64,000 nucleotides of DNA from Flectonema sp. DT1601. Its lineage: Eukaryota. Below the pieces are notes generated by a model. That model did not search any database, had not been told where the DNA came from, and worked only from the letters and a program-made list of their open reading frames with translations. Location: NCBI GenBank assembly GCA_964019425.1, contig OZ025788.1:868001-932000 (forward strand), in the 5' to 3' direction. Shown in pieces: positions 15,184-53,991 of this stretch. The position numbers were made by a program, and so were the translations under genes. The stretch's first letter is position 1; each line of letters opens with the position of its first letter.

Positions 15184-15432
15184 TTTTGGATTCAAAGATA
15201 TCTGAAAATATATTAATTTTTATAACTTGGATGGCATCTCAACTATCTAATCGCTGCATCCTAAATAGCCAGATGGTTAAACATTTCAAATGTCGTCTAT
15301 CTCTGCCTAGTATGGTTCGGTTGTCTTGTATAAAGAAGTAAATTATAATATACTCAGTTCTAAATTTTAAAAATAAAAAAAAGCAATTATTGCTTCATTT
15401 TTTTGATTTCAACGACGTCACATTTCCAAAAT

Positions 15433-16922
15433 TTACTTTCTCTTTGGTGCGGCCTTCTTGGCAGCCTTCTTCACAACCTTCTTGACGGTCTTCTTCACCT
15501 TGGCCTGTCCGTTGGTAACCTTGGCGTTAGGGTTCAATCTGTACATGACGGACTTGTTGGTGAGTGGGTTGCTGTGCTTGCGGACTGGCTGGGTGCTGAC
15601 GGTACGGGCACGGCAGGCGTTCTTCACTTCCTCAGAGTTGATGATACGCTGAACGTCAGAGACGGTGACGGTTGGGCGTGGAAGGTTGTAGTTCTTCTTC
15701 ACTTCGCTCTTGGCGTCAGCTCCTCCGAAGATGGCTGGAAGCTGCTCGAAGGCGGCCTTGGTCCAGATGATGAAACGTCCGACGTGACCACCTGGGGCGA
15801 GCTGGAGGAGGTTCAAGGACTTGACGTTGCAGGTGTCGATTCCTGTTTTAGATTATAATAATTACGTGAAAAATGAAACCATCAACCAAGCTTATTCACA
15901 CAGCCTGGCATCGCTATTGGTACCTCCATAGCGATGCTATGTTTCATCCATAGCTCTGTTTCAGATGAAAAGAACAGAGACTCACGACAAGATAACAACA
16001 TACCGGCGAGGTTCTTGAATGCACGAACACCGTCAGCCTCGGCGAAGACGACGAGAGGTCCACGACGGTTGACGTAACGTCTGTTTCTCATCTTACCTCT
16101 TCCTGATCTCACTCTCTCGTTGACGGAAACACGTTCACAGTCGGTGGTGGCGTCGAGGTCGGAAAGGGCCTTTACGGCGTCCTTGGCCTTCTGCAACTTG
16201 TCAAGACCGTCAACAACAAGTGGGAACTCAGAAACTTCATCGATCTGTTTTGTTTTGTTTTATTTTGCTTTTTAGTTTTCAATAAACGAGAAGAGAAACA
16301 AAGGAACATACCTTGTGTCCACGGGCCATGACGAGGGCTGGAACAGCGGAGGCAGCAAGGGCGCTGACGGTGGCGTAACGGCGCTGGTCACGATTGATAC
16401 GTCTGTGCCACTTACGGAACACCTTCAATGGTGAGAACATGTGTCCTCCACGACACATGTTTCCGTATGCTCCCTGTCCGGAACGGTGGGTACCACCTCC
16501 TCCGGCACGTGGAATACGAGCCACGGCACGTCCCTGTTGTAAGTAAGTTGGTATTTTTAATTGCCCACTTGACAGCCACCGTAAGAATCTTAAAGTGAAT
16601 GGACTAGTTAGAGAAGTTTTTATGTTTCACAAAATATGTTATTAAGTACACTAATTTAAATAAATAACAATATCAATAATTTATCATACAACCACATAAT
16701 CACAAAAAAATAATAACATACAGTTCCCCATGACTCAGCGGTGGCCTGGTGACCAGCTCTTCTCATGACACCCTGGGCCTGACGAGAGTTCTTTCCCATG
16801 TCACGGTGAACGGTACGGACAACGTCTGGACGGATTGGGGCGCAGAAGACTTCTGGGAGGACAATCTTGTCTCCGGCTTTGCCATCAACTCCGAAGACGG
16901 TAACTTCTGGACGGGAGGCCAT
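15433..16922 (-). CDS. RPL4: 60S ribosomal protein L4, copy 2 (intron 1 only 188 nt, 16534-16721)
   Basis: Exons nearly identical to copy 1, with the same intron positions. Confidence 0.97.
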
Positions 16923-17427
16923 TTTGGAAATGTGTCGAGTTCTGAAGTGAAATATAAAAACAATAAATTCAAACTAAGCAAAAAGAATTTTCAAGTGACA
17001 ACATGCGGAAAACAATTTTAGCCAAAACCTTTCCATCACATCAGTCGGGTCACAAAAGATTATTCTATCTTGGAGCGGGTTCTGTCTCACTAATTCTATA
17101 AACAGAACTAGTCGATCATCTGCAAGTATTCATCTACTGTTACAGATTGTCCTGAGTAAATAACAATGACGAGACACAATAAAACTATTTAAATGATCAT
17201 AGAATAATCGAAATGACAAGAAGTGAATAAAGGCACTGAACTCCACAAGAGAATTCCAGTAGGCGATCGTTTTTTTTTTTTTTTTTTGTTGGTTTTCAAT
17301 TCCTTGATCAGATAAAAGAGAAAAATAAAAACATTTCCCTAAACTTTTTTTTGTTTTTTTTTTTTGGTGTTTTGTTTTCATAGGGAGGAAGAATTAGTAG
17401 TCGAGATGTCCAAAGTCAGCAACTCGC

Positions 17428-19081
17428 TTACTTTCTCTTTGGTGCGGCCTTCTTGGCAGCCTTCTTCACAACCTTCTTGACGGTCTTCTTCACCTTGGCC
17501 TGTCCGTTGGTAACCTTGGCGTTAGGGTTCAATCTGTACATGACGGACTTGTTGGTGAGTGGGTTGCTGTGCTTGCGGACTGGCTGGGTGCTGACGGTAC
17601 GGGCACGGCAGGCGTTCTTCACTTCCTCAGAGTTGATGATACGCTGAACGTCAGAGACGGTGACGGTTGGGCGTGGAAGGTTGTAGTTCTTCTTCACTTC
17701 GCTCTTGGCGTCAGCTCCTCCGAAGATGGCTGGAAGCTGCTCGAAGGCGGCCTTGGTCCAGATGATGAAACGTCCGACGTGACCACCTGGGGCGAGCTGG
17801 AGGAGGTTCAAGGACTTGACGTTGCAGGTGTCGATTCCTGTTTTAGATTATAATAATTACGTGAAAAATGAAACCATCAACCAAGCTTATTCACACAGCC
17901 TGGCATCGCTATTGGTACCTCCATAGCGATGCTATGTTTCATCCATAGCTCTGTTTCAGATGAAAAGAACAGAGACTCACGACAAGATAACAACATACCG
18001 GCGAGGTTCTTGAATGCACGAACACCGTCAGCCTCGGCGAAGACGACGAGAGGTCCACGACGGTTGACGTAACGTCTGTTTCTCATCTTACCTCTTCCTG
18101 ATCTCACTCTCTCGTTGACGGAAACACGTTCACAGTCGGTGGTGGCGTCGAGGTCGGAAAGGGCCTTTACGGCGTCCTTGGCCTTCTGCAACTTGTCAAG
18201 ACCGTCAACAACAAGTGGGAACTCGGAAACTTCATCGATCTGTTTTGTTTTGTTTTATTTTGCTTTTTAGTTTTCGATGATATCTCACAACGAAAAGAGA
18301 AACAAAGGAACATACCTTGTGTCCACGGGCCATGACGAGGGCTGGAACAGCGGAGGCAGCAAGGGCGCTGACGGTGGCGTAACGGCGCTGGTCACGATTG
18401 ATACGTCTGTGCCACTTACGGAACACCTTCAATGGTGAGAACATGTGTCCTCCACGACACATGTTTCCGTATGCTCCCTGTCCGGAACGGTGGGTTCCAC
18501 CTCCTCCGGCACGTGGAATACGAGCCACGGCACGTCCCTGTTGTAAGTTAGTTGGTATTTTTAATTGCATTCACTCAGGTGGATATTCTCATTAGTCATT
18601 GGTGCGACCCAACTAATAACATTCTTTAATCACCATATTCACAACTAACTTCAGTCTCAGATCGACAGATCTCCCAAAGCAGAAGATGTCAACTTCTCAA
18701 TGGGGTTGTGGTCATCCTTAAGTTGTGATCATCATAAAACGCTTCTGAAGATCTTCCAGTAAACACCCTGATCAATCTCTTCAGAACGTTGCTCATCAAC
18801 AGTTCTGTTCTGCTGTTGATGAGACCACAGAGAAGGTAATTATCATGAGCCGCAATAATCACAAAAAAATAATAACATACAGTTCCCCATGACTCAGCGG
18901 TGGCCTGGTGACCAGCTCTTCTCATGACACCCTGGGCCTGACGAGAGTTCTTTCCCATGTCACGGTGAACGGTACGGACAACGTCTGGACGGATTGGGGC
19001 GCAGAAGACTTCTGGGAGGACAATCTTGTCTCCGGCTTTGCCATCAACTCCGAAGACGGTAACTTCTGGACGGGAGGCCAT
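17428..19081 (-). CDS. RPL4: 60S ribosomal protein L4, copy 3 (intron 1 343 nt, 18538-18880)
   Basis: Exons nearly identical to copy 1, with the same intron positions. Confidence 0.97.
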
Positions 19082-19424
19082 TTTAGTAAAGAAATGAATA
19101 GATATCTGATTAATAATAAAATAATAAATTCACAACTATCACCGACTGAATAATCTCATATCCACACCAGTGTTGTCCTTCAGACTGAATATAGAACCCT
19201 CCCATATTAGGTTTATTCATGGTGTCGATCAGTGCTGGGAAGAGTAGTGTTAACGAAATTAAATGCACCCTGCGTTAGGTAGGTTTTTATTGGTTTTTCA
19301 GGTCGTTGATAAAAACGGGCCAAAAAAAAAGGCCGCAAAACAAATAAGAAAATATTGAAAAAGAGCTTTTGTTTTCATAGGGAGGAAGAATTAGTAGTCG
19401 AGATGTCCAAAGTCAGCAACTCGC

Positions 19425-21669
19425 TTACTTTCTCTTTGGTGCGGCCTTCTTGGCAGCCTTCTTCACAACCTTCTTGACGGTCTTCTTCACCTTGGCCTGT
19501 CCGTTGGTAACCTTGGCGTTAGGGTTCAATCTGTACATGACGGACTTGTTGGTGAGTGGGTTGCTGTGCTTGCGGACTGGCTGGGTGCTGACGGTACGGG
19601 CACGGCAGGCGTTCTTCACTTCCTCAGAGTTGATGATACGCTGAACGTCAGAGACGGTGACGGTTGGGCGTGGAAGGTTGTAGTTCTTCTTCACTTCGCT
19701 CTTGGCGTCAGCTCCTCCGAAGATGGCTGGAAGCTGCTCGAAGGCGGCCTTGGTCCAGATGATGAAACGTCCGACGTGACCACCTGGGGCGAGCTGGAGG
19801 AGGTTCAAGGACTTGACGTTGCAGGTGTCGATTCCTGTTTTAGATTATAATAATTACGTGAAAAATGAAACCATCAACCAAGCTTATTCACACAGCCTGG
19901 CATCGCTATTGGTACCTCCATAGCGATGCTATGTTTCATCCATAGCTCTGTTTCAGATGAAAAGAACAGAGACTCACGACAAGATAACAACATACCGGCG
20001 AGGTTCTTGAATGCACGAACACCGTCAGCCTCGGCGAAGACGACGAGAGGTCCACGACGGTTGACGTAACGTCTGTTTCTCATCTTACCTCTTCCTGATC
20101 TCACTCTCTCGTTGACGGAAACACGTTCACAGTCGGTGGTGGCGTCGAGGTCGGAAAGGGCCTTTACGGCGTCCTTGGCCTTCTGCAACTTGTCAAGACC
20201 GTCAACAACAAGTGGGAACTCGGAAACTTCATCGATCTGTTTTGTTTTGTTTTATTTTGCTTTTTAGTTTTCGATGATATCTCACAACGAAAAGAGAAAC
20301 AAAGGAACATACCTTGTGTCCACGGGCCATGACGAGGGCTGGAACAGCGGAGGCAGCAAGGGCGCTGACGGTGGCGTAACGGCGCTGGTCACGATTGATA
20401 CGTCTGTGCCACTTACGGAACACCTTCAATGGTGAGAACATGTGTCCTCCACGGCACATGTTTCCGTATGCTCCCTGTCCGGAACGGTGGGTTCCACCTC
20501 CTCCGGCACGTGGAATACGAGCCACGGCACGTCCCTGTTGTAGTTTTTTTTTTATTCACTGAGTTGATTAACCCGCGAAGAAGCAATTCAGATAAGGGAA
20601 CAGTCTTAACTGGAATTACAATTCATTACCGTTCTCTAAATAGTTACTATGTAAGTTGTAAATTAAGTCACCGACGACTGTTTCTGTTGCAGGAAACGGA
20701 ACCCAAGGGAAGAAGTTACACGCACTCAATATTCGTCTTGCGATCTGGAATTGGTAAGCAGATGTGTCTTCGAAGGATTTCCTCAAAAAGTATCAATCTT
20801 AAGGATCGACATCCATACGTAACAACCAACATCGAGTCTCGGATCGACAGATCTCCCAAAGCAGAAGATGTCAACTTCTCAATGGGGTTGTGGTCATCCT
20901 TTCATTAAGGCTTTGCAACAACACCACTTCAAGCAATTACTCGAAGGGAGAAGGCGATCCAACGGATTGACGTCCCTTATTACTTGCATTCACTCAGGTG
21001 GATATTCTCATTAGTCATTGGTGCGACCCAACTAATAAAATTCTTTAATCACCATATTCACAACTAACTTCAGTCTCAGATCGACAGATCTCCCAAAGCA
21101 GAAGATGTCAACTTCTCAATGGGGTTGTGGTCATCCTTTCATTAAGGCTTTGCAACAACACCACTTCAAGCAATTACTCGAAGGGAGAAGGCGATCCAGC
21201 ACATCGTCCCAGTAACCGACTTCCACAATTATTAATACTCTGTCTCGGATCGACAGATCTCCCAAAGCAGAAGATGTCAACTTCTCAATGGGGTTGTGGT
21301 CATCCTTAAGTTGTGATCATCATAAAACGCTTCTGAAGATCTTCCAGTAAACACCCTGATCAATCTCTTCAGAACGTTGCTCATCAACAGTTCTGTTCTG
21401 CTGTTGATGAGACCACAGAGAAGGTAATTATCATGAGCCGCAATAATCACAAAAAAATAATAACATACAGTTCCCCATGACTCAGCGGTGGCCTGGTGAC
21501 CAGCTCTTCTCATGACACCCTGGGCCTGACGAGAGTTCTTTCCCATGTCACGGTGAACGGTACGGACAACGTCTGGACGGATTGGGGCGCAGAAGACTTC
21601 TGGGAGGACAATCTTGTCTCCGGCTTTGCCATCAACTCCGAAGACGGTAACTTCTGGACGGGAGGCCAT
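19425..21669 (-). CDS. RPL4: 60S ribosomal protein L4, copy 4 (intron 1 934 nt, 20535-21468)
   Basis: Matches copy 1 from ATG to stop, introns included, at offset 6486. Confidence 0.97.
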
Positions 21670-22098
21670 TTTAGTGGTTTGAACGATGAGATGCTGGTGA
21701 GATAATTTATAACAACGACAAGGAAGACTAAAAGTCTTCCTTGTCAAAAGTCACACTAAAAGGCCTCATCACTAACAATAAGAACTGTCCTTATTCTGAA
21801 AGAGTTAATAATAAGTGAATAAATGAGTATTTCTACACCCCAACTTGCACACTCGTAAACAAATGAATATTAGCGGAATCGCAATAACTAAATAAAGGCA
21901 AATGGTTACTCGCCTGGTGTAAAGGCTAGTAGCTAACTAAGATGGCTATCCTCATTCTAGCAGGAGATGGAAAGGATTTCCAAGAGGGAACAGAGCTCGG
22001 GTTTGTTAATAACTCGGAACAGAATCAATAAGATGAATAAACAAAAAACAAAGAGCAACAGTGTCTTTGGTGGGTGTCGAGGTGCGATCAAATCAGAA

Positions 22099-39915: not shown

Positions 39916-40466
39916 TGTCCCTGTTTGACAAATTAGTTGTTATAGACTCGTATTACTACTTAAGTAAACTAAACTACTTCCTGAAAGTACTTCAAACAAC
40001 AATATAAACCGAAATAAAAGAATATTGCAAGTGCTTTTTAAAGGAAGTGTGCGTAGGTTTTATTTATTTTTCATATTTTTTTTTTTTTACCCCTTTATTT
40101 CCCCCTTCTCTTTTTTTTTTTTTTTTTTGCTTTCTTTCTCTTTTTTTCTCTCAAGGGGTAGTTAAGAATCAAATTCACAGTATGAAAAAAAAAAAAAAAA
40201 AAATGAAAAACACTTTGCCCCAGCTGGTGCTTTGATAGCTGGGTGGGGAGAATAAGTCTATATGGGATGGAGTGAAAGACCAATTATTATTATTATTACT
40301 ATTTTTTTTTTTCTCGCGCGCACAAAAAAATGAACCAGAATATGGAAAGCGAGCGGCAACAAACAAGAACGACGAAAAAAAAAAAAAAAACAGTTAGTGT
40401 GACGTACTATTGACCTACTCTAATTACTTACAAGTAGCTAATTAGCAGGACACCTCAACTGCGTGC

Positions 40467-40657
40467 AGGCTTGAAATGAATCTCAAAAGTACCTTTCAGT
40501 AATAATATAAAACCAACCTTTGATTCGTTTTCCATTAGAAGTTGCCCTATATCCATGAATTTAGGGCTTAAGATAAATCTCAAAAGCGCCTACTACTTGA
40601 TTAGATATCCATTCCAATAAAAACGCTTTGGGCTTGAGATTAGTCTCAAAAGCACCT
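40467..40657. repeat. Three ~28-nt semi-palindromic repeats with unrelated spacers
   Basis: GGCTT(G/A)A(G/A)ATNA(A/G)TCTCAAAAG(C/T)(A/G)CCT at 40467, 40564 and 40630. Confidence 0.7.
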
Positions 40658-41830
40658 TTACAAAAAACATTAAACATCACAACCACTACCCCGCACTGCA
40701 GTTCAATTTTACTTGTCAGTAAACAGAAACCTTAGACTTGGGGGGATATCACGAGCTATCTTTCGGCCCACGTTTTTTTTTGTTTGGTTGCGTGTGTAGG
40801 TCTTTTTTTTTTTTTTTTTTTTTTGCTGCAAGATGGAGATTATTTTTGATGCCATTTTTTTTGGGAAGGGAACGGGAATGAACTGAGCTGGCAGTTGCAA
40901 CAAAATCAAACATCGTGAACCAATACAAAGAATAAGGTTTTCCTTTTTTTTTTTTTTAAATTTTTTTTCTTTTCAGCCATGAAGTTGCAAGGTGCGCACA
41001 AGTGAAGGAGAATACCGCAAAAAAAAAAAAAAAAAAAGCAGTACAACTATTTTTTTTTCCTCTAAAATAACAAACGGTCACAAGATTATCCCGTTTAAAA
41101 AAATATGAAAACATGAAAACATGAAAGATTAAAAACTGAACCAGTCAATCACTATGAATAAAAAAGAACAGAAAGACGACGACACCCAACACTCGATTGT
41201 AAGTAATTCTGTTCCCCCATATAATGGGATTCGTGGAAAAAAGAGAAACAAGGCTCAGTATAGTTTTCAGCAAATTAAAAAATAATAAGGGCGGGAGTGT
41301 GAAAAGAAAACGAAAAAAAAAAAAAAATACTCATCTTTGTCTAACAGTTGTTTTACTTTATGAAGTTATGACTGAAAAAAACAGAACCCCAACTTCCTCC
41401 AAAAGAAAGAACAGCAAAGTACCTTAGCCTGGTTTAGGTTACATATTTTTATTTTATTTTATAAAAAAAAAAAAAAAAAACGAAAGAATAAAGGCAAGAA
41501 GCAAAACAACACCACCCATCGCACTCTAAGATATTTATTACGTCCCACAGAACCCGCAATGCCAACAGTAGCAATTTTACGGACTAAGAAGGACAATATT
41601 CGAATCGAATAACGTTACACCAAACGGTGTGACGACAACCAACTTGGCCCATAAAAAAAAACTAAATGTGAGGAAAATTGCTTGCTTCCAAAAAATGTGG
41701 AGGGGGGGAGGTGATTATTATTTTCGTATCAGATTCAAGTCGTTGGAGTTTTGGCAGGAACTTTGGTTCACAAAAAAATTGAAAAAAAAAAAAAAAAAAA
41801 AAAAGTCCGCCACCTTTCTCATCTATAATG

Positions 41831-42295
41831 TTTATTATTTATTTATTTATTATTTATTTACGAAGCCTAGGAAGCCAAAGCCAGGAAAAGCTCACAGAGT
41901 AACAGTTATATCGCTACCAGCAACCGTGAGACTCTCACAGACGATAAGAGACGTAGAATAACCTGGAACAAATGACTACCTAAACCCACCGCCGGCGCGA
42001 GCAGACAGTGTTTGAGACGGCTGATAACGCCAATTTTCGTCAAAGAGAGGGAGAACACGCCAAATTATTTATTTTATTTATTTATTTATTTACGAAGCCT
42101 AGGAAGCCAAAAGCCAGGAAAAGCTCACAGAGTAACAGTTATATCGCTACCAGCAACCGTGAGACTCTCACAGACGATAAGAGACGTAGAATAACCTGGA
42201 ACAAATGACTACCTAAACCCACCGTCCACGCGAGCAGACAGTGTTAGAGACGGCTGATAACGCCAATTTTCGCCAAAGAGAGGGAGAACACGCCA
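41831..42295 (-). repeat. Tandem pair of ~232-bp retrotransposon 3' ends (41831-42062 and 42064-42295), each with its own (TAAA)n tail
   Basis: Direct repeats differing at about six positions outside the tails. Confidence 0.9.
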
Positions 42296-42391
42296 CATTA
42301 GATCAGAAAATAAGAAATAAAGTAATGATAAGTAATAGAAATGATACTAATAAATAAAATAAGAAATTACACTAGAGGAAAGAGACGTTCA

Positions 42392-45300
42392 TTATCTACC
42401 TCGGGGATTACTTCGCAGGAGGCGACTTAGGCGAGAGAGGAACTTAGAAAGCTTGGATTCCGACCAGCTAGGATTGACCAGCACATTAACCATAGAAAGG
42501 TCGTCAATAACAACATTTAAATCGGTAGCTTTATAAGCGTTATCAATAAGTTCCATAACATATTTCTTCACATCAGAACCCAGTAGCGAGAAACTTGTCT
42601 TCCTTTCGATGTGTGTGATTAGTTTCTTCCTCACAAAAATACCCTGAAGCGGAAACTTCAACAACAACGGATTGTCAGATAACTCTTTAAGATGATTATC
42701 AAGCTTGCTGATCAATAACAACGTGAAAGGCTGCCATTCGGTTCGAAAGAACATATCCAGAGATAGCTCATCATCAGGTGTCGGAAATCTCATGGTTTGC
42801 TTTACTAATTCCCTGGTCTCAACGCATTCAAGCAGCAGATGCTCAGTTGAGGTATCCTGAAAGCCACAGAACAGACAACATTTAAAGCCCGCAGTGACCC
42901 TCGGTAGCTTTACAAGCCTGTGGTGAGAGGTTCGCAGACGAGACAATTCTACCTCCTGCCCCCTATTGAGACAGGGAAGGAAACGCTGAGGGCCAGATCC
43001 TAGAGTCGCTTTGCTGTATGAATGCGAAGAGTCCACAGTACCCATAGCCTTCCAATTTGCTTGTTTCTTAATACAACATTGAGCCATCCTGAAATCATAC
43101 GGAGTTAGTTCAGGGTCAACTGATTGCAAGGCTGCCTTCTTTGCCAGTGTATCAGCCAGTTCATTCCCTGCAATGCCACAATGAGATGGGACATGTTGGA
43201 AAATCAACGGCCTATCAAGAAGCACTGAGCGTTCAAAAATCTCACGATTTGTTGATGATGACTGCCTGGATGGCCCCCTATGCAGGGAGGCAAGCGCCGA
43301 CTGACAATCACTGAAAATATGAATCACGCCATGCGAAACAACATGAAGATTCTCCTCTAGTAGTTCAAGGGCTGACAATAGTGCTAGTTGTTCTGCATTG
43401 TAAATCGTGAGGGACGGTTGGAACTTGGAGAGCTTCTCAATGACCTTGCCAGCAACTAGCAGAACAGCAGCCCCCCCACATAATAATCCCCGCTCCTCGT
43501 CATGGAAGACCGAGGCATCAGTGTAGACTTCAGCAACACACGGGGGCAGTTCATTGAGGGTCGTCATCGCCACAGTATACTTCTCCTCAGGTGTGTCAGT
43601 CTTGTCATAACCGCAGGACGTGTTTACAACCAAAGGAGGATGCTTCGACCACGGAGGGTACTGATGTGGCAGAACTTTCTGGGACCTAAGCTCTGACAGA
43701 GAAAATTCCGAGGAACAGGCTTCAACTCTAGTCTGCCATGGTCTCTTCTTCTCACCACCGTTAAACAGCCTCCATGAAGGACATTCAGGTTGTCGCCTTA
43801 GCAAATCTTCATGAACTAGGGCAAGGAGCCTAGATATCGTTTGTTGCAGCGGTGGAATTCGCGACTCAACTGTGAGCACCACATCCTTCGTCGAGAACGA
43901 GCAACCAGTGAGTCTTATCCTTAGATGACGCAAGCACGCTTCGATCCGCTTGATCTGAGCATCAGACAAAAAGGGAGAAAAGGCCTTTAGTCCAAAGAAC
44001 GCTCGAGATAACACTGCACCATCTACAAGCTGACGAAGGGTATCAGTTTTGACCTCATAGGCAGAGAACATTTTGAGTAAACCGCAACCAGCTCGAATTG
44101 TTTTCACAATCTTATCCACCTGTTCGTCGAAGCATAGCGAGTCATCAATGATAACTCCTAGGTATTTCGCGCTCCTGACACGTTTCAGCGGGATCGCTGC
44201 TTTCAGCCTGAACTCTTTGCTCTTACGAGCACAGGCCAGTCGGACAAAGTCAGAACGTCTCGTCACCGGGTAACCATCAATCTCCAGTGGCAGCAAAGCA
44301 TCAGCGAGATCCAGAACTGCCCCTATTGATGGAGAAAGCTTCTCAGTGAGAGCACCGGCAGAGCCTGTAGGCATGTGTAACTCTTCAACAGACGATGGGA
44401 AGTAAAAGCGAGGTGCCCTACTCCATTCGACATCGGAGCCAGAGATGCGCTTACCAAAGGCAACGTACTCTGTTTTCTTCATGTTTACCTCCATCTTAGA
44501 GGAAACCATCCAACCTTCTATCTGAGAGATGACGGACAGGCCCTTCGCTTCGATCCCATCTATCTTCTCATGTTGCAGAAACACGGCAAGATCATCAGCA
44601 AACAGAACACTGAGATCAGCATCACTTATTAGACCTGGCAGGGAGTCGACAAAGATCCGAAATAAGAGAGGACCAAGCACAGATCCTTGAGGGACCCCCT
44701 TTGTACACGATCTGGATCCATTATCTAATCCCAGAGACAGACTCACATTTCTATCCGAAAGATAATTCGCAAGCCATTTAACATACGGAACCGGCAGGAC
44801 AGCTACCAATCTATCAACGAGTATTTGATGATCCACGTTATCGAATGCCCCAGAGATATCAAAGAGGATGATCGCTCCATAACCATCATAGAGTTTCTGC
44901 ACACCGGAAGCCGCATCCACCAATAGCGAGATGTTCTCTTCTACATTTCTGCCCGGCGTAAAACCAGACTGCCTAGGGTCCAACTTCCCCTCCAACAAAT
45001 GTTCACATCGATTACCTACAAGCGACTCCAAGCACTTCGAAACAATTGACGTCAAAGAGATTGGTCTGTAAGAAGACGGAAGAAGCGGGTCACGATCCCC
45101 TCCCTTCGGAATTATTATCACCTTGGCCTTTTTCATGCAAGAGGGAAAGATACCCCTCCTGAAAGATAGCGAGGCGAGTCTAAGCAATAGTAGGAGCATA
45201 CGGGGACCCAAGTTAAGCAGCATATTATTAGAAACAGAATCTAAACCAGACCCGTGGGAGGGAGTCAATGACTTCAGTACCGTGTATAACTCATGAATCG

Positions 45301-46555
45301 AAAAAGAACCACAGCTTGAGTCATCATAATCAGCAGGCTTCGAATCAGGAACTAATAACGGTGAGGATTTTGAATCACCAAAGAAATGGTCGAGTAAATC
45401 ATCAGCAGCTACCGGAACTTCCTTCGAATTAGACCGACCGCCCCTGAGTTCCCGCAGTTTGTCGAAGGCCCAGGCCGCTCCTTTTGAAGAACCAATTTTC
45501 GCAATAAGATCAGGTCTCAGCTTAGGTAATTTCTTCCTCCGCTTCGTATCAGATTTGAACCATTTGTTTGGAAGCGTTTCAATAGCCACCTCCTCAATTA
45601 GACTAATAAATTCACATCCAAGCTTGTTCACATTAGACATCCCCTCCAAACGATGAGCTCGCGCTTCAGTTAGCACGCGAAATGAGACCCAGTGCTCATC
45701 CTCGAACTTGTTGTAGAACCAGCGGCGGTGAGCGGGAGTGGTAATTTGTGAGCAGCCCGGATATACCGAGATGTCAACCACTATTGGCGTGTGGTCGGAC
45801 CCACTATCAGACGCACTGTATTGGTGTACATTCAACACCTCAATATTGCTGTCGACAAGAAACAAATCAGGTGAAGTCTCTGAACAAGGTCTTGTATCCA
45901 GCGGAACATCGCAAATCTGCAGTCCATTTCCGTTAATCCAATCAAGAACTGACAGACCTCGCGACGAACTACTTGTTGGAACCACCCTCGACCACGACCG
46001 ATGGTGAGCATTGAAATCTCCACATACTACTTCACCGAAGACAACAGAGGTCGGCACCAAGAAATTCTGCGGAATATACACATTAGAAGACGTAATCGGA
46101 CCGATGTCTGTCATTACCTCGACAACTAACACCTCAAACGGTGAATTACGCTCAGTTGGATCCGATAATCTCCTGACCACAAGGGAGTCCCTGCAGAAAG
46201 TCGCCAGTCCACCACCGCGTTTTGCCTTGCCATCAAAATTTAATCTGATTCTGTCCCTACGGAAGCAGGTGTATCCCTGAAGTTGAATCTGTTCATCAAG
46301 AACCAGATCAGTGAGCCAAGTTTCTTGAATATGGAGGATGTCAGGATTAGCCGATTGAACGAGCCGTACCAGAGATTCATGGTGCTTTACCATCGACAGC
46401 GCATTCCAACTAAGTATTCTCAGCGGCGATATATCAGACATCGGACCAGGGTGTCTCGGAAAACCACTACGATAGAGTTCCAGAAGCCCACTCACAGAAT
46501 AATAGTACTCCAAGGACGGAGTCTTTCCCAATAAAGAGTCAATTGGAAGTGGTTG
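42392..46555 (-). CDS. Retrotransposon ORF2: AP endonuclease, reverse transcriptase, RNase H, CCHC finger (first ATG at 46441; frame open from 46555)
   Basis: APE: SWNA, IQETW, GDFNAHH, SDH. RT: YRPISLTS, QSGF, FDISGAFDNV, GVPQGSVLGP, FADD, KYLGV. RNase H: YTDAS, AEQLAL, FSDCQS, HVPSHCGIAGNELAD. Finger: CLFC..H..C. Confidence 0.97.
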   Translation of the reverse strand, partial: QPLPIDSLLGKTPSLEYYYSVSGLLELYRSGFPRHPGPMSDISPLRILSWNALSMVKHHESLVRLVQSANPDILHIQETWLTDLVLDEQIQLQGYTCFRRDRIRLNFDGKAKRGGGLATFCRDSLVVRRLSDPTERNSPFEVLVVEVMTDIGPITSSNVYIPQNFLVPTSVVFGEVVCGDFNAHHRSWSRVVPTSSSSRGLSVLDWINGNGLQICDVPLDTRPCSETSPDLFLVDSNIEVLNVHQYSASDSGSDHTPIVVDISVYPGCSQITTPAHRRWFYNKFEDEHWVSFRVLTEARAHRLEGMSNVNKLGCEFISLIEEVAIETLPNKWFKSDTKRRKKLPKLRPDLIAKIGSSKGAAWAFDKLRELRGGRSNSKEVPVAADDLLDHFFGDSKSSPLLVPDSKPADYDDSSCGSFSIHELYTVLKSLTPSHGSGLDSVSNNMLLNLGPRMLLLLLRLASLSFRRGIFPSCMKKAKVIIIPKGGDRDPLLPSSYRPISLTSIVSKCLESLVGNRCEHLLEGKLDPRQSGFTPGRNVEENISLLVDAASGVQKLYDGYGAIILFDISGAFDNVDHQILVDRLVAVLPVPYVKWLANYLSDRNVSLSLGLDNGSRSCTKGVPQGSVLGPLLFRIFVDSLPGLISDADLSVLFADDLAVFLQHEKIDGIEAKGLSVISQIEGWMVSSKMEVNMKKTEYVAFGKRISGSDVEWSRAPRFYFPSSVEELHMPTGSAGALTEKLSPSIGAVLDLADALLPLEIDGYPVTRRSDFVRLACARKSKEFRLKAAIPLKRVRSAKYLGVIIDDSLCFDEQVDKIVKTIRAGCGLLKMFSAYEVKTDTLRQLVDGAVLSRAFFGLKAFSPFLSDAQIKRIEACLRHLRIRLTGCSFSTKDVVLTVESRIPPLQQTISRLLALVHEDLLRRQPECPSWRLFNGGEKKRPWQTRVEACSSEFSLSELRSQKVLPHQYPPWSKHPPLVVNTSCGYDKTDTPEEKYTVAMTTLNELPPCVAEVYTDASVFHDEERGLLCGGAAVLLVAGKVIEKLSKFQPSLTIYNAEQLALLSALELLEENLHVVSHGVIHIFSDCQSALASLHRGPSRQSSSTNREIFERSVLLDRPLIFQHVPSHCGIAGNELADTLAKKAALQSVDPELTPYDFRMAQCCIKKQANWKAMGTVDSSHSYSKATLGSGPQRFLPCLNRGQEVELSRLRTSHHRLVKLPRVTAGFKCCLFCGFQDTSTEHLLLECVETRELVKQTMRFPTPDDELSLDMFFRTEWQPFTLLLISKLDNHLKELSDNPLLLKFPLQGIFVRKKLITHIERKTSFSLLGSDVKKYVMELIDNAYKATDLNVVIDDLSMVNVLVNPSWSESKLSKFLSRLSRLLRSNPRGR

Positions 46556-48277
46556 TTAATTCCTCGAGTAGTCCCGTTTCTCATTCCGGTCAAGACGGTC
46601 AGCCATTTCAGACTTAGTAGCAGCAACAGAGTTAGCTCGTTGCCTACTTGAGACCGTCAGCCTCTGAGAACCCGATCCTTTATCGTTATTCAGGGACTCA
46701 ATCTCCTTTCGAAGACATCTATTCGCATCCCTCTCTTCAGCAAGGTCCTGCCGTAGACTCTTCACAGCAGCCGTTAGTTCAGTAACCTGCGATACCAATT
46801 TAGAAATGTCGGATTGTTGACAGTTGTACTGCGAAGGCGGTAGGGGCAGCTGCTGTTTGTTCGATTGTAGCGTCTGCAGATATTGCTGATTTTGCTGATT
46901 TTGCTGAGAAACAGGCGGTGGTGATAAATCAATTCCAACAGATGGCGCAGCGTTAGGTTGACAGAGGTGAGGAAACTCGTCCAGGTCCATCTTATCGGGA
47001 TTCTGCTTGCCGAGACCCACCTCTTTGATTGTGATCATGTCATCACGAAGAATGATGAAGTTACTCTTGGGTTTCTCCTTGGCCACTACAATCATCTTAG
47101 GAAGCTCCTTTCTGCTCCTGTACCTAGCAACGACGTTAATCTCCCACCCTTGGTGAGCACAGACCTGCACTACTTCCAGCGAACTCATCGCATCAATTGC
47201 TCGGCTCCTCAAACAGAACTTGAGGCCTTCAGGTGGAGGCGGCAGTGCATTCTCACCCAGCTTCGATCGCACGTAATCTTCGTCGGTCTTCAGACACACA
47301 ATCCCCAGCTTGCGTGAGTGGCGGTAGAACCTCAGAGGTAACCGGAGTTCACCGGCTAGCGATGAGGCTAACTTAAAATCCACCGTGAGCTGGATTGACG
47401 ACCTGCACGGTGCTGTGTCTGCGAAATTCGGTACTGATAAGAAGTACCCACCACTCCCACTTGCCCTTCTCAAGGCGTCAACAGCGTCTGCTGGCACCCT
47501 CATGTTCACAGACTTAACATGAGGGTCTGATTCCTTCTTGTTGGCAGGCCACAAGAGGTGCGGCTCGATGGGCATGTTCGTGACTGCTGTGTAGTAGTCA
47601 GAAGCCTTCTTGCACAACTCATTAGGTGAAGGTACCTTGTCGTTGGAGTGGAGCGCGTGGTGGTGGAACAATACCACTCGATTGTCACCGGCAGTCAGAG
47701 CGTCTCCACGGAAGAGGGTAGCTGGTTTCCCGGTTGATACAATCCAACCGGTCCGATGTGTCAGTACACCGTCGTTTACCACCGCCGGGAACTGTATCTT
47801 CTTACCGCCCCCAGGGTTTTTCTTGCAAATTACCGAGAGGTTTGTTCCCGGTCGGAGTTTAATCATCGCATCTACATCAGAGGCCGTGCCCAGTGACACA
47901 CCACACGTAATCGACGTGTTAAACACGCCTGACATCGAAATTATTGGAACAGACCAGTCATCATCACGGAGTTGGCAGTCCCACCGCTTCTCTTGCACAT
48001 TCGGTAAATTAGTTGCTGCCTTCCCATCACATCGGACCTCCTTCAGTCCACTAAACGAATTCAGCGCTTGAGCCGGCTCAGGCTTGCGCTTCACTACCTT
48101 GGGCCGCTTACCACGTACCCTCGTCCATTCCTCATTCATCGGCGATAAATCCACCGATGGCTTCTCTCCCCCGTTGCGTTTAGTAACCCCCTTTACATTC
48201 AAACCCTTCTGCATCTCACCGAGCATGCCCACCATCTTCTCCAGCATCAGGCCAAATAGGCCTGGATCCAATGTCAT
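46556..48277 (-). CDS. Retrotransposon ORF1 (573 aa; Q/P-rich segment and C-terminal coiled coil)
   Basis: Long ORF directly upstream of, and in frame with, ORF2. No zinc knuckle seen. Confidence 0.85.
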   Translation of the reverse strand: MTLDPGLFGLMLEKMVGMLGEMQKGLNVKGVTKRNGGEKPSVDLSPMNEEWTRVRGKRPKVVKRKPEPAQALNSFSGLKEVRCDGKAATNLPNVQEKRWDCQLRDDDWSVPIISMSGVFNTSITCGVSLGTASDVDAMIKLRPGTNLSVICKKNPGGGKKIQFPAVVNDGVLTHRTGWIVSTGKPATLFRGDALTAGDNRVVLFHHHALHSNDKVPSPNELCKKASDYYTAVTNMPIEPHLLWPANKKESDPHVKSVNMRVPADAVDALRRASGSGGYFLSVPNFADTAPCRSSIQLTVDFKLASSLAGELRLPLRFYRHSRKLGIVCLKTDEDYVRSKLGENALPPPPEGLKFCLRSRAIDAMSSLEVVQVCAHQGWEINVVARYRSRKELPKMIVVAKEKPKSNFIILRDDMITIKEVGLGKQNPDKMDLDEFPHLCQPNAAPSVGIDLSPPPVSQQNQQNQQYLQTLQSNKQQLPLPPSQYNCQQSDISKLVSQVTELTAAVKSLRQDLAEERDANRCLRKEIESLNNDKGSGSQRLTVSSRQRANSVAATKSEMADRLDRNEKRDYSRN

Positions 48278-50874
48278 AGTTGTTAATTATTGGAAATCAA
48301 TAAAGTACAGAAATAGTTTGCACAATAAAGTACAGATGAAATGAGTAGTATAAAGTTTCAACAAAGACGGTAAATCCGAGAATGATTTTTGACAACAACT
48401 TTAATCACAATAACAATAATGGAGCAATGAGATGAAGCTGAGAGCGAGCCCTACAAAAAACAAAAAAAGAAAACAGCTGCTGCGCAAAACAGCATCTGCC
48501 TATGCATTATAAAAGAGTGCACTTTGCAGACCAACAAGCACACGAGATAAATGAGAAGTTGGGTATAAAAAAAATAAAAAAAAATCTTTTTTTTCTCTTT
48601 TTATAGTAGTGATTATTAGTCAAGACCCAAACATACCAAAGTAGCCTAAAAACTTTTTTTTTTTAGATTAAGCGAGGATTCCTCTCATTTTTAAAGAAAC
48701 TGCGGTTAAACTGATATTTATATTTGTCGGGACTTCAGTTTCTAGAAATGAGCCCACGTTACTGAAAACAGTGTTCGTTAAATTAAGCGGTGGTCACTGG
48801 GAGTCTACTCAAATTAGCAAAGTGGTAGTTACTTTATAATAACAATACAAGTATTTTACTTAAACCAGCAATCGTCAACAACTGTGATCTCGGTCACATC
48901 GACCGAGGTCACAGCAAGTTATTGTCATTATTCAAAGAAACGATTGCAAAGCAGTTTTTTTTTCTCTCTTTTTTTTTGTATATCTTTACTCAAAGCGACA
49001 AACCCTTCATATGCTGCTGTATGGTCACCTTCTGGAAAAGACAAGTTGTCTTATGTACAAACAACGTTTCACGCAACAAAGAAAGACGTGACGACATGAA
49101 CGGGAGTAGAAACAAAAGGAAAGTCGAGAGAACATTATAAAAGAAAGAAAAGAATAACAAAAAAAAAAAGAAAATGGTCGCTCATTTTTTACGTGACTAG
49201 CTTCACTCTTTATTTTTAAACAATTGCTTGTTTGGCTAAATAATTTTAAAAAAAAATTAATAAACACGAAAAACATTATGAAAAAAGAAACATGAGAATC
49301 CCAAAATAGTGAAGAAAAAACAGATGAGTTGGTAGAGGGAGAATTCAACAACACTGCAGTGACTTATCTTTATAAAAGAAAACTCGGCTGCATAATTGAA
49401 ATTCAAAGGAGAAGAAAAGAAAAAAGCAACTCTTTAGAACCGCCTTCTGCTGCTAATCGAATCGAGAGTTGCGAATAAACGCCTCGTATTTCTGCAAGGT
49501 TAGACTTACAACGGATTTTATTCGAAAAGGTATCCTTTTATTTTATTTTATTTTTTGCACTTTCATCGGAGAAACAAAAACCATTCAGATTAAGAGAGCG
49601 GTTACCCATGCCATTATTATTTAGTATTACTGTCTTCGATCAAACAAGGCTGAATCTGAAGGTTCAATTAATGGTCTCTTTTGTTAGTTTTTTTATTTTA
49701 TTTCATTTAATCAACTTCCTTCTTTTCCTAATCTACTGCTTTCAATCAGTGAAAAAGTAGTAGACAACGCAAGATATCAACAAGCATGTCAAGTTATGAA
49801 TACTTGTTGAAAAGTGATGTCTCCTTCACTAAGGAACATGTGAGCCTGTTGCAGGTCAATAATTCTTTTTATTTTTTTTTTTAAAAACAAAATCAAGTAG
49901 GGAATAAGGGCTTATTGCATATATTGCTGACCGAACCCGCTCTTAAGCAAGGCAGGGATTACAAAAAAAGAACAGCAAAAGCAAAAAAACAAGTGATTAT
50001 TTTAATTTTGGGCTGGGGATAACTCACATCAACAGAAAAACTAAAATCTGCTGACGGAGGGCTAATTACATAACGATTTTATGTCTTAAAACATTCAGAG
50101 AAAAGCAAAAAAAAACAATAAGCGGATAATAGGGATGGATGACAAATTAGTGACTTCATGGCAATTGAAATTAAGTTTTCTTTATTCTCTATTTACATCT
50201 TCTAAATAGTAGTTCTTGTACAACCATGGAGGCCAATTATTGAACATAAAAGAAAAAGGCGGATTTTGAGGAATGGTTTGCCTGATAGTTGTTTGATGAG
50301 GTTCAATCGCACGAAGTAACCAACAAAACAAAACATTGGCAAAGTGACGGGAGCGAAAAGAGAAAAAAAAAAGAAAACACACTCAGCTTAGGGGTGTCAA
50401 TATTGGAATTGCTTTGGAAAGTTTTGTCGACAACAGAAGAAATTATTATGCCTCATCTAAAACAGGACGTAGGCATGCCCTCCGGACTGAGATTGATGAA
50501 CGTGACGTCACAGTATATATGAAGCACACATGATCCGATGTACTTTATGTTGCTGCTTGTGTTGCCTGATGAGGAGTAATAATAAAGAGAAGGAAGATTT
50601 TCAAAAAAAAAAAAAAAAAAAAAAAAAAGAACAATGAAATGAGCTATGCTATTCACCCAGCCCTAAATAATAAAAAGAAAAAAAAGAATTCCCTCTTTCG
50701 GCAAAGCTGACACCTCTAATTGTCAAACAGTAATATTCAAATGATAAATCTTTTAAAACTCAACCGTGAAAAAGAAAACAAATAACAACTATTGGGGTGA
50801 CAAGTATCTTGAGCATGACTTTATATACAAGCAATCGCTACACGTAGGTACCGTACTTCTTTCACAGCTCCAAG

Positions 50875-50988
50875 ACGCAAAGCCAAAAATCGGAAAAAAC
50901 TCACAGGGCACAGACGAACAAATGACTACCTATTGCCCGCGCGAGCAGACGGTGTTAGAGACGGCTGATAACGCCAATTTTCGTCAAA
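50875..50988 (-). mobile_element. Internally deleted remnant of the retrotransposon 3' UTR
   Basis: Shares GAACAAATGACTACCTA and GCGAGCAGAC..GAGACGGCTGATAACGCCAATTTTCGTCAAA with 41831-42295. Confidence 0.85.
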
Positions 50989-51402
50989 TAAATATAGTGA
51001 GGCATCGATAAAAATAAATAAAAACACACGGAAGGTATTTTCTGACAGGTAAAGCAAGCTACGTACGCTGTCAAGAGTTTTACCAACATGTAAAAAAATA
51101 ATTAAAAAGACAAGGGAGAAAAAAAAAAAAAAAAAAAAAAAAAATGATTAAACCTGAAGCACACGTCATTCAACCCCGCAATAGAAGAAGAATAAAATCA
51201 TAATTTTTTTTTTGGCGCATTTCAGGTCACATAGAGGGGATTAAGAGGAAAAATGCTTGCCAATAAATACGGAATTATATCATCATCAGGAGAAAGAAAA
51301 AAGAAAAAGAAAACGTAGGAGTACTTCTGTCTCAAACAGCGTCCATTTGTCATCCAAAAAAAAAAGAAAAGGAAAACAAAAAATGAAAAAATCATTATGA
51401 TT

Positions 51403-51486
51403 TTTTATTTATTTATTTATCGAAGTCAGAGAAGTCAAGCTTCTGCAGAGAAGCATCACTAGGGTACCTAGGCTCTCCATGAGACG
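51403..51486 (-). mobile_element. Diverged retroposon 3' terminus with (TAAA)n tail
   Basis: TTTATTTATCGAAGTCAGAGAAGTCAAGC..AAGCATCAC aligns loosely with TTTATTTACGAAGCCTAGGAAGCCAAAGC..AAGCTCAC of the full element. Confidence 0.5.
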
Positions 51487-53991
51487 TAAATTGACCAGAA
51501 GTAACTTTTTCAATACAACAGATATAAAAAGAGAGAAAAAAAAAACATGCACAGAAACATTCAAACTTAATTTATTTTTTTCTTTTTTTTTTCTTTTTTT
51601 GGGAGGGGAAGTAGTCTGGGTTCCTTTTTTTTTTCATTTTTTTTTTGTTTTATCTTCTTACTCTAAACGCAAAAGACAAAACAGCACCTGTGAAAAAGTC
51701 CATTGGAAAGAAAAGGTATGGTAAAAAAAAAACAGGGCCAATAAATAACGAAGGAGAAAGCAAAATATCAAGAAGGCTGTTATAAAGTAAAATGAATCAC
51801 AAGTCCAAGAGAGACAAGTTAAGGGAAGGAATGTCCCATTTTTATTTTTTTTAGTGATCTTTGATAGCCCTCATTTTTTTTTTACATAATTTCAGAAAAA
51901 GAAAAGAGCGGGGGAAAAAAAATGTTCAGCACGAACTTTGCGTTGCTTAGTAGTACACACCAAACCGTAATTGGAATGGCTGCATTTCAACTAGAGACAT
52001 CAATGTAACTTTATAGCTTACATCAAACTAATGTGACACGATGACTACGTTGAAGGGAGAAAAAAAAAACTAATTTTTTGGTTGAATTGAATGGGCTGCA
52101 CAACCTGAAAAAAAAAGGGGGGGGGGCGGTAAACTGTTTGATTAGGTTTATACGAATATAAATCTCCTTATTGTATCAAAAGCTAAATAATGAAATTTTA
52201 AAAACTCATGACACAGTGACTAACATGGGGGGGAGAAATTCCTCAGGAGGGCAGCTTCATGCTATGCTGCAATCTTTTTTTTTTTTTTTTTTTTTTTTTT
52301 TTGTGTTTTGATGGTGTTTGTAATAATCGGGTTTGCAACAATCCTTTTCTTCCACATGATTGTTTAAAAGGTTCTCATTTCTACGAGAGTAGTTGAAAAC
52401 GACAACGATAAAACTCAGGGTAACAGATGATAAGATATGCAATGTACCTGACAAGTTTTCCTTTGTGACCAACACATGTTAACCAGTTGAAAACCTCCAC
52501 GACACGCACACTTAGGTAGTAGATCATATATATTAGTATTGGTGACCAAGTGACACCAAACCAATATCTTTTGCTGATAGACATATTTCTATACGGTTTT
52601 GCCTAAAGAACTTGTGCGATGCCAAACCGAAAGAAACCAGGCAACCAGCTAGCATACAAACAATTTATCTGCGTCTTGCAGTTATGTTTGTTTAAGTCGA
52701 GAAAAAAAAAAAAAAACAAAAAAAAAAATAATAGATTCTTTTTTTTTTTTTTTTTTTTTTTAGGATGAGGGGGGTGGTGAAAAAAATCTTCTTCGTATTA
52801 TATGGTTTTTTTTTTTTTTTTTTTTTTGTTACTTTTTTAATCCTACAACAACTGAAGTCAGTTGATAATGAAAACAACAACAAAAAAAAAAAAACACATA
52901 AAAGACTTATTGAGGTAAACTTCTAGATGAGCTGTAACTCGTAATTAAAGTACATAAATAAGAATGAATCTCAATCTAATAGACTCGCAGACTAATATAA
53001 GCAAGGTACCTTTCGTATTTCCACTTCCGTGTTGCTAAGCGTCGCATGGTGGGGGAGAAAAAGCAAAGCAACATTACTACCAAAAACTAAGAGACCAACT
53101 CCTAAGCAAAGGTGAGAAGCTTCGTTCACGAAAAATTGACCAATATTTGCTTTTAAAAAAAAACCCCCCGAAATAATGCAAGAAGAGAAATTATTGTCAC
53201 CATTAAAAAAAAAAAAAAGAAAAATGATTAAATAAACAGTTGTTGAGTCTCTTGATGCACTGTAGGAAGTTATCAGAATAGAATTTTACAGCAGTCATCA
53301 GGACTGTTCAAGCGGCTAACAGACACAACCCAGTGCAGGGAGAATCACATAGTTGAAGTTGTCGTTGAAAAGTTGGAATTTTTTTCGTGAAGACAAATGG
53401 GAAAAAAAAAAAAAAAAAAAAGAGTGCAGCCATTTTTTTTCTCTCAAAACCAAGATAAGGCTACCAACGCATCGAATAAAAAAAAAAAGCTACAACAGCG
53501 CAGAATCATTTACGGGGATACAAATATAAAAGAAATCATCATCGAGGCAATCTGAAGACTACCACCAGAAAGGGATTGTGTGCTGTCTGTTAATATTATT
53601 TTTTTTTATATTGTATTCTTTGAACAAAACAGAACAAAAAAGAAAGCCTTACCATCCCTTGGATATAACCCTCTAATGCATATCGGCCAGAGGATGTGTA
53701 TTGTGGGTAGACGACTCACTGAACATTATCACTTTGAAACACTCAAAGAGAACGATAATCAGCTGATATCTTGCCTGCTAAGAATACACAACTCACTACT
53801 ATGGGACATAACTATTCTTAAAAAGCATTAAGCTAAAAAGTAAAAGAGTTTCGAAATGCTTAAATAAAAACAGAAGGTTGATTGTCAAACTGTGATCTGT
53901 TCACTCAGAGAATTCACAAGTGGCTCAGTTGTCTTCATCAATCGTGATGAGTTGATAATAAGTAAGGTCACGTACACCCTTACAAACATAA

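What the first reader, a model, noticed from the sequence alone, without database searches (positions are those of the whole stretch)
46500..46561. ORF1 and ORF2 are one frame split by a single leaky-context stop (TAA CAA CCA): candidate readthrough-plus-2A expression system in a LINE
Seen: ...AGG AAT TAA CAA CCA CTT CCA ATT GAC TCT TTA TTG... continues without another stop for 1387 codons through APE-RT-RNase H. Known: stop-CAR-YYA is the tobamovirus-type readthrough signal, and CAA-CCA fits it exactly. Non-LTR elements usually express ORF2 by reinitiation or from overlapping ORFs. A hairpin TTCCAAT/ATTGGGA starts 7 nt after the stop, followed by ACTCC/GGAGT, which could act as a 3' stimulator. 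Inference: low-level readthrough sets the ORF1p:ORF2p ratio, and the 2A-like motif ending 38 codons later releases ORF2p. I do not know of this two-step recoding scheme being described for a LINE.
Basis: partly seen in the sequence, partly recalled or inferred. Interest (0 to 1): 0.88.

Follow-up and report, generated by a model that had tools for sequence, protein, structure and literature searches.

The report
LINE leaky stop before worn-out 2A
An intact jumping gene (a LINE) from a single-celled marine-type protist has its two genes in one reading frame, split by one stop codon in a virus-type leaky context, so its copying enzyme is likely made when ribosomes occasionally run through that stop, while the 'self-splitting' 2A peptide just behind it is worn down and probably splits the product poorly or not at all.

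Summary
On the minus strand a 573-aa ORF1 ends TAA CAA CCA, an exact CAR-YYA context, and the frame runs on for 1387 codons through APE-RT-RNase H. The stop is no one-off mutation: 9 of 9 stored family proteins that reach it end there. The 38-codon linker has no AUG, yet its last 26 residues align without gaps (10 identical; 0 of 5000 shuffles) to the 2A-like start of a sister family's ORF2, so it is likely translated. Readthrough is the best reading (about 0.65 in all); restart at a UUG that lines up with the sister's start is the main rival. The 2A step is weak: the motif has lost D, V/I, E and N, so an ORF1p-ORF2p fusion is likelier than clean release. No DNA for sister junctions and no RNA data were obtainable. 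LINE readthrough was already proposed for Paramecium (PMC5405496) and 2A before APE is known (PMC3708506); the two in series, in a spliced-leader-capped euglenozoan LINE with an ORF1, I did not find in print.

The parts
48323..48336 (-). Outer spliced-leader relic, 14 nt matching the 3' end of the euglenozoan SL exon
   Evidence: SL table in PMC3795323
48298..48313 (-). Inner spliced-leader relic, 16 nt matching the 3' end of the euglenozoan SL exon, 20 nt before the ORF1 ATG; inferred 5' end of a trans-spliced element RNA
46556..48277 (-). ORF1, 573 aa; no Pfam hit; predicted RRM-like domains followed by a coiled coil; homologues in sister elements and in a Flectonema transcript
   Evidence: fold matches weak, E 1.2e-3 or worse
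46550..46558 (-). ORF1 stop and 3' context TAA CAA CCA (stop-CAR-YYA)
   Evidence: 9 of 9 family proteins end at this point
46526..46548 (-). Predicted hairpin 1 (7 bp), 7 nt after the stop
   Evidence: modest z-score
46504..46524 (-). Predicted hairpin 2
46529..46531 (-). In-frame TTG that lines up with the called start of sister-family ORF2 (P0171); candidate near-cognate start in the rival model
46442..46555 (-). 38-codon open linker without AUG; codons 13-38 (46519-46442) are homologous to the 2A-like N-terminus of the sister family
46442..46465 (-). Degenerate 2A-like core GFPRHPGP (sister family GVHPNPGP)
42392..46441 (-). ORF2 from ATG 46441, 1349 aa: APE, RT (FADD), RNase H, C-terminal Cys/His motif; uninterrupted
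42301..42391 (-). 3' UTR with a T/A-rich low-complexity tail; no poly(A) and no convincing target-site duplication found

Best explanation
This is an intact, multi-copy two-ORF LINE whose ORF2 protein is likely made by low-level readthrough of the in-frame UAA-CAA-CCA stop, and whose degenerate 2A-like peptide probably skips weakly or not at all, so that the main product would be a 1961-aa ORF1p-ORF2p fusion. Shown: the layout, the exact context, the shared stop position, the conserved AUG-less linker peptide, the SL relics. Inferred: the RNA carries a trans-spliced leader; most ribosomes stop and release ORF1p (573 aa); a small fraction inserts a residue at UAA and goes on through the linker into APE-RT-RNase H, which sets a high ORF1p:ORF2p ratio as gag-pol readthrough does. 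The linker descends from the usual 2A-bearing N-terminus of ORF2 in this lineage. Any residual skip at G|P would give 611 aa plus 1350 aa.
For: (1) Exact stop-CAR-YYA; background 4 of 1962 in-frame dicodons, 0 of 64 APE-ORF upstream stops in 72 distant LINE loci. The motif is reported to work in plants, mammals and yeast, and on all three stops in plants and yeast (PMC13517186, passages). (2) 9 of 9 stored family proteins that reach the junction end at RDYSRN, down to 96% identity. (3) Linker codons 13-38 align ungapped with the sister ORF2 N-terminus: 10 of 26 identical against 42% over ORF2; 0 of 5000 shuffles, 1 of 5000 without PGP. There is no AUG in frame before it. (4) ATG 46441 has C at -3 in a GC-rich context; 9 of 10 other predicted starts examined (9 host ORFs and ORF1) have a purine at -3. 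(5) In two sister families the called ORF2 starts inside APE: 5 of 15 listed members of the P0024 family, 4 of 15 of the P0025 family, i.e. all listed members that begin in the first part of APE, which suggests no usable upstream AUG. (6) P0017, a +1-frame call over the junction in a damaged copy, has Ser for Asn, which by one base change gives TAG CAA CCA (inferred from protein only). (7) For a weak skip: non-conservative change at the Glu abolished or nearly abolished activity in tested LINE 2As, and N to H lowers it (PMC3708506).
Against: No nucleotide sequence of any other copy or sister junction was seen, so conservation of CAR-YYA and of the frame is untested; Logan contigs did not cover the stop. 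The family is young (96-100%), so the shared stop is shared descent, not independent selection. An ATG directly after PGP would give a complete APE without any recoding. A TTG in the linker lines up with the sister's called start, and the first 12 linker residues show no clear conservation. One sister family (4 of 10 members, P0026 group) has its own called start before the 2A-like peptide. UAA is the weakest readthrough codon. Starts in the protein collection come from a gene caller that also uses GTG (P0019), so point 5 is soft. Hairpins are weak and unreplicated.
Confidence: 0.5

Rival explanations
1. One reading: readthrough, then an active 2A-like skip at G|P releases free ORF2p (1350 aa) and an extended ORF1p (611 aa).
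For: All the readthrough evidence above; PGP is kept at the homologous place (it occurs 0 times elsewhere in ORF1p and ORF2p); related diplonemid elements carry near-canonical 2As before APE (P0027 Flectonema, P0197 Diplonema ambulator); some non-canonical 2As are active (bioRxiv 10.64898/2026.09.24.754024, section read); no test exists on diplonemid ribosomes.
Against: Core reads FPRH in place of V/I-E-x-N; active non-canonical peptides differ at one core position, and only 139 of 1969 scored highly active; generic 2A profile misses the linker.
Confidence: 0.15
2. Termination-reinitiation: ribosomes stop at UAA and restart at the near-cognate UUG 46531 (24 nt after the stop) or at AUG 46441; the CAR-YYA match is chance.
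For: Reinitiation is the route described for SART1 and proposed for L1 (PMC5972666, passages). TTG 46531 aligns with the sister's called Met and conservation begins just after it. In-frame ORF1-ORF2 with a nearby Met occurs in 2 of 40 distant loci with an intact APE start. AUG 46441 yields an intact APE.
Against: Does not explain the exact hexamer (4 of 1962), the shared frame and the open first codons together; both candidate starts have a pyrimidine at -3; restart at AUG 46441 would leave the conserved linker peptide unexplained.
Confidence: 0.25
3. ORF2 is made from its own mRNA by spliced-leader trans-splicing at an AG in the linker, starting at AUG 46441.
For: The element's 5' end carries SL relics; essentially all Diplonema mRNAs are trans-spliced (PMC10161547, passages); 7 AGs lie between the last upstream ATG and AUG 46441.
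Against: No pyrimidine tract: longest run 6 nt against 11-29 nt for 7 of 9 host ORFs (6 and 7 nt for the other two). It would cut the full-length RNA needed for copying, and leaves linker conservation unexplained.
Confidence: 0.07
4. A nonsense mutation in a once single-ORF element, or a dead layout.
For: None beyond the shared frame.
Against: 9 of 9 family proteins end at this stop; 0 of 9 ORF1 hits in the 50% library exceed 739 aa; ORF1 homologues at 23-33% identity end soon after the same C-terminal block. A fused form hidden inside a cluster is not excluded: 10 of 25 ORF2 cluster members were not listed.
Confidence: 0.03

Closest known systems
Paramecium tetraurelia non-LTR Group 3 (Guerin et al. 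2017, PMC5405496; passages seen)
   Same: [quoted passage not shown]
   Different: Ciliate clade; the passages seen name no CAR-YYA, 2A, RNase H or spliced leader for it. In Paramecium the stop must be UGA (recalled genetic code).
L1Tc / Ingi and other 2A-bearing APE LINEs (Odon et al. 2013, PMC3708506, parts 1-3 of 6 read; Luke et al. 2013, PMC3894237, parts 1-2 of 3; PMC5814959 passages)
   Same: 2A-like peptide directly before APE; APE-RT-RNase H order; euglenozoan host; an HPGP variant exists in 20% of L1Tc copies.
   Different: Ingi-clade elements are reported to have no ORF1; here there is a 573-aa ORF1 in frame. Core is far more degenerate. L1Tc transcripts are unspliced and start at Pr77/HDV ribozyme; here the 5' end has SL relics. 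The few known ORF1-plus-2A elements (CR1-26_BF, CR1-53_BF, CR1-1_LG) are not described with readthrough in the parts read.
Type I (tobamovirus) readthrough signal UAG CAR YYA (PMC13517186 and PMC2194720, passages); SIRE1 stop suppression (title seen in a reference list)
   Same: Exact CAR-YYA after the stop; upstream abundant protein, downstream enzyme.
   Different: UAA rather than UAG; non-LTR element; activity untested in euglenozoans.
Tca2 and VdLTRE5 Ty1/copia gag-UGA-pol elements (PMC2194720, PMC3441728; passages)
   Same: Retroelement with two in-frame ORFs split by one stop.
   Different: LTR elements without CAR-YYA; in Tca2 the local context did not direct readthrough when tested, a warning that layout alone does not prove the mechanism.

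Membership tests
Type I (CAR-YYA) programmed readthrough | CAR-YYA directly after an in-frame stop | tested here: met
   TAA CAA CCA
Type I (CAR-YYA) programmed readthrough | Open, conserved coding frame after the stop | tested here: met
   Linker peptide homologous to sister ORF2 N-terminus; 1387 open codons
Type I (CAR-YYA) programmed readthrough | Context conserved in diverged relatives | tested here: inconclusive
   No sister DNA; one damaged copy implies TAG CAA CCA from protein only; contigs miss the stop
Type I (CAR-YYA) programmed readthrough | Measured readthrough that depends on the context | not testable with these tools
   Needs reporter, profiling or peptide data
2A / StopGo peptides | Core D(V/I)ExNPGP or class B W-x3-(L/V)-x2-EG(I/V)Ex(N/H)PGP | tested here: not met
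   SGFPRHPGP lacks D, V/I, E, N; against class B it lacks W, both E and I/V
2A / StopGo peptides | Homologous position and descent from a 2A-like ORF2 N-terminus | tested here: met
2A / StopGo peptides | Ribosome skipping at G|P | not testable with these tools
   Needs a polyprotein assay
APE-type non-LTR retrotransposon | APE and RT in ORF2, multiple copies | tested here: met
Ingi clade | APE-RT-RNase H with 2A-like peptide before APE | tested here: met
   (2A-like only as a relic)
Ingi clade | Single ORF, no ORF1 | tested here: not met
   573-aa ORF1 with homologues
Ingi clade | Pr77 / HDV-like ribozyme at the 5' end | tested here: inconclusive
   No Rfam match in 40000-53000 beyond 3 chance hits; SL relics found instead
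Ingi clade | RT phylogeny groups with Ingi/L1Tc | not tested
   No labelled Ingi sequence came back from any search

The most novel reading that the evidence does not exclude
A lineage of spliced-leader-capped diplonemid LINEs, Ingi-like but with an RRM/coiled-coil ORF1, expresses ORF2 through two recoding events in series: type I readthrough of a UAA stop, then skipping at a 2A-like peptide (GFPRHPGP) that lies outside every described 2A class and works on euglenozoan ribosomes, releasing free ORF2p and an extended ORF1p.
Probability: 0.15. Interest if true: 0.85.

Novelty: new variant of a known kind. Interest (0 to 1): 0.56.

Why it matters
How LINEs translate ORF2 is an open question (PMC3894237). 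Readthrough has been suggested for LINEs from sequence only (PMC5405496). This junction has the best-characterised nine-base signal, which works without a structure in several hosts, so it can be tested in a short reporter with clean context mutants. The element also joins an ORF1 to a 2A-bearing ORF2 in euglenozoans, where the known 2A elements lack ORF1, and its sisters seem to use different starts. That makes the group a small natural series for asking whether readthrough replaces 2A as the way to keep ORF2p scarce.

Tried and rejected
No whole genome is held. The look-up of sequencing runs: no RNA holder listed. Laid contigs of 4 runs cover 46107-46519 and 46596-47035 in X1 without differences but not the stop: no evidence either way. 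Word search with linker+APE found nothing. Viral contigs: 134 pattern matches, 0 relatives. Metagenome scan gave only distant LINEs at 22-45% best-segment identity, used as background only. Long-range pairing between the 60 nt after the stop and the rest of the RNA: best helices 9 bp (13 with G-U), reached by 32 and 26 of 60 control windows; best duplex -26.1 kcal/mol, weaker than all 30 controls: rejected. ORF1 as a recent insertion flanked by a 10-nt duplication: rejected, since ORF1 has homologues at 23-33% in sister elements. A reassigned genetic code: not supported, 12 long ORFs read under table 1 and 6 of them end in TAA. Target-site duplication: none convincing. Rfam and ARAGORN found nothing in the flanks. 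Single-sequence fold of ORF1 failed (pLDDT 38). The protein atlas gave no answer. Three papers were not held and were not seen: Heras 2006, Harrell 2002, Alisch 2006. No supplements were read; Table S3 of PMC5405496 and the supplements of PMC3708506 may list junction details that bear on novelty.
Full report
Observation. The feature is on the minus strand. ORF1 runs 48277-46556 (573 aa) and ends in TAA; the next codons are CAA CCA CTT CCA ATT, and the frame stays open for 1387 codons to 42392. Pfam finds APE, RT and RNase H in that frame and nothing in ORF1. The first in-frame ATG is 46441, directly after GFPRHPGP. The two hairpins are in the predicted fold, but only modestly above shuffles (z -1.9, 6 of 200; whole linker 67 of 200). 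CAR-YYA occurs at 4 of 1962 in-frame dicodons of the element, and 38 open codons follow a stop in 60 of 518 cases in its other frames. With a one-in-three chance of sharing the frame, the layout is unlikely at a single random junction. It was, however, picked after the fact from a very large scan, and the open frame is partly explained by descent (below).

What the element is. The host is a euglenozoan. Two relics of the spliced-leader 3' end (16 and 14 nt) lie 20 and 45 nt before the ORF1 ATG; they match the Euglenozoa SL table of PMC3795323 (passages). I infer that the RNA that was copied had been trans-spliced, perhaps in two rounds. The closest named relatives are from diplonemids: Flectonema neradi (ORF2 P0027, ORF1 P0200) and Diplonema ambulator (P0197). 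ORF1 has homologues of 587-739 aa at 23-33% identity. A model built on 8 sequences (mean pLDDT 62) matches RRM and RRM-plus-coiled-coil proteins weakly (best E 1.2e-3, none at 1e-3), as expected of a LINE ORF1p. I did not test the clade by phylogeny; the architecture is Ingi-like, but Ingi elements are reported to lack ORF1 (PMC3708506).

Is the stop real? The ORF1 cluster has 8 members. Seven end at RDYSRN, and the eighth is a frameshifted N-terminal half. Two further fragments from other clusters also end there: 9 of 9 stored proteins that contain this end stop at it. No ORF1 hit is longer than 739 aa (9 hits), and the best 120 of 1765 ORF2 hits hold no close relative of fused length. So it is not a nonsense mutation in this copy. 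The family is young (96-100%), so this shows shared descent of an active layout, not long-term selection on the context. One damaged copy was called in the +1 frame over the junction (P0017) and has Ser where the window gives Asn; one base change explains it and gives TAG CAA CCA. This is an inference from protein. Contigs of public runs do not cover the stop.

Is the linker translated? One of them begins with a short peptide ending LLRSGVHPNPGP before LRVLSWN (4 of 10 members). The window's linker aligns to it without gaps over 26 residues, 10 identical, score reached by 0 of 5000 shuffles and by 1 of 5000 when PGP is removed. The linker is therefore about as conserved as ORF2 itself, though it has no AUG in frame. 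Either ribosomes enter it through the stop, or they start at a near-cognate codon, or an AUG was lost very recently. ATG 46441 is a poor candidate start: C at -3, where 9 of 10 other predicted starts have a purine (11 of the 12 ORFs were given to that script, and starts are first ATGs, not verified). In two other sister families the called ORF2 starts inside APE, after the first conserved Asn (P0025 group, 4 of 15 listed) or after the conserved Glu as well (P0024 group, 5 of 15 listed of 18). The P0024 group shares contig lengths with an ORF1 family (P0203). That pattern fits a lineage without usable AUGs, but it rests on a gene caller's choices.

Against readthrough. An in-frame TTG at 46531 falls exactly where the sister's called Met falls, and conservation starts just after it. 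The ATG after PGP would give a whole APE. One sister family has its own called start. UAA is the weakest readthrough codon, although the type I context is reported to act on all three stops in plants and yeast (PMC13517186, passages). In Tca2 a similar layout did not read through from local context when tested (PMC2194720, passages). As background, 0 of 64 APE-bearing ORFs with an upstream stop in 72 of 78 distant LINE loci have CAR-YYA; 2 of the 40 with an intact APE start have a long in-frame upstream ORF, both with a Met within five codons. So in-frame layout alone is not rare; the hexamer is what carries the case. Internal trans-splicing is possible in this host, but the linker has no pyrimidine tract. 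Long-range pairing was tested and not found.

The 2A step. The motif is a real descendant of a 2A-like sequence: near-canonical versions sit at the same place in the Flectonema and Diplonema elements. But here D, V/I, E and N are all replaced, with Pro at the key Glu. In tested LINE 2As, non-conservative changes at that Glu left little or no activity and N to H lowered it (PMC3708506). Active non-canonical peptides in a 2026 screen differ at a single core position (10.64898/2026.09.24.754024, sections 28 and 31 read). A profile of nine related 2A-like ends did not place the linker in the top 8 of 2040 window segments. I therefore expect mostly a 1961-aa fusion; the kept PGP leaves room for weak skipping or pausing.

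Weighing. Readthrough with weak or no skip 0.50; readthrough with efficient skip 0.15; reinitiation at UUG or AUG 0.25; internal trans-splicing 0.07; nonsense mutation 0.03. These are judgements, not computed values.

Novelty. Readthrough of a LINE ORF1 stop is already suggested in print for Paramecium Group 3 (PMC5405496, passages). I was led to that paper by unchecked notes of this scan, which list 11 findings of in-frame LINE junctions in at least 9 genomes, 8 shown; these are leads, not support. 2A before APE is known, with a few elements that also have ORF1. I found no paper on a CAR-YYA junction in a non-LTR element, or on readthrough followed by 2A in one, in ten searches of the open library (listings seen, and passages of PMC3441728, PMC5972666, PMC13405545, PMC10161547, PMC5814959). 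Those searches also missed the Paramecium paper, so they are not exhaustive, and subscription journals and supplements were not seen. Verdict: a real, testable new variant of a known kind; interest 0.56.

Noticed in passing
window 48279-48288 and 46552-46561 (-): The 10-mer AATTAACAAC occurs twice in the window: just before the ORF1 ATG and across the ORF1 stop (0.37 expected, 6 of 100 shuffles reach 2). It puts an out-of-frame TAA CAA CTA before ORF1 too. Unexplained; it leaves open that the CAR-YYA match is a by-product of a repeated A/C-rich motif.
   Followed up: partly
window 48298-48336 (-): Two tandem spliced-leader relics at the element's 5' end, suggesting retroposition of SL-capped RNA, unlike the unspliced Pr77 transcripts of L1Tc.
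   Followed up: partly
window 46529-46536 (-): The linker holds CTTTATTG, the last 8 nt of the SL exon, ending on the candidate TTG start. May be chance.
   Followed up: no
window 41834-42300 (-), partial copy 50916-50988: Two tandem copies (about 233 nt, 96% alike) of a SINE-like repeat ending in AATA-type tails, directly 3' of the LINE; a 79-nt part recurs upstream. No tRNA or Rfam match.
   Followed up: partly
window 46584-46492 (-): A 30-codon ATG-started ORF in the +1 frame overlaps the ORF1 stop and ends inside the linker.
   Followed up: no
window 42444-42707, run X1: One contig is a diverged copy of the ORF2 3' end with 30 listed differences and loose ends: probably another subfamily.
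   Followed up: no
window about 12900-21700: Four near-identical copies of a block spaced about 2.0-2.5 kb apart, with inner repeats (D7-D14, D17-D18): a tandem gene or repeat array.
   Followed up: no
L015 and L069: Distant LINEs with a long upstream ORF in frame with ORF2 across one stop (TAG CCG ACA GCC then Met; TAA ATG).
   Followed up: no
P0200 (Flectonema neradi transcript, suffix .p2): The suffix suggests a second, longer ORF on the same transcript; its junction would be a direct test in a named species.
   Followed up: no
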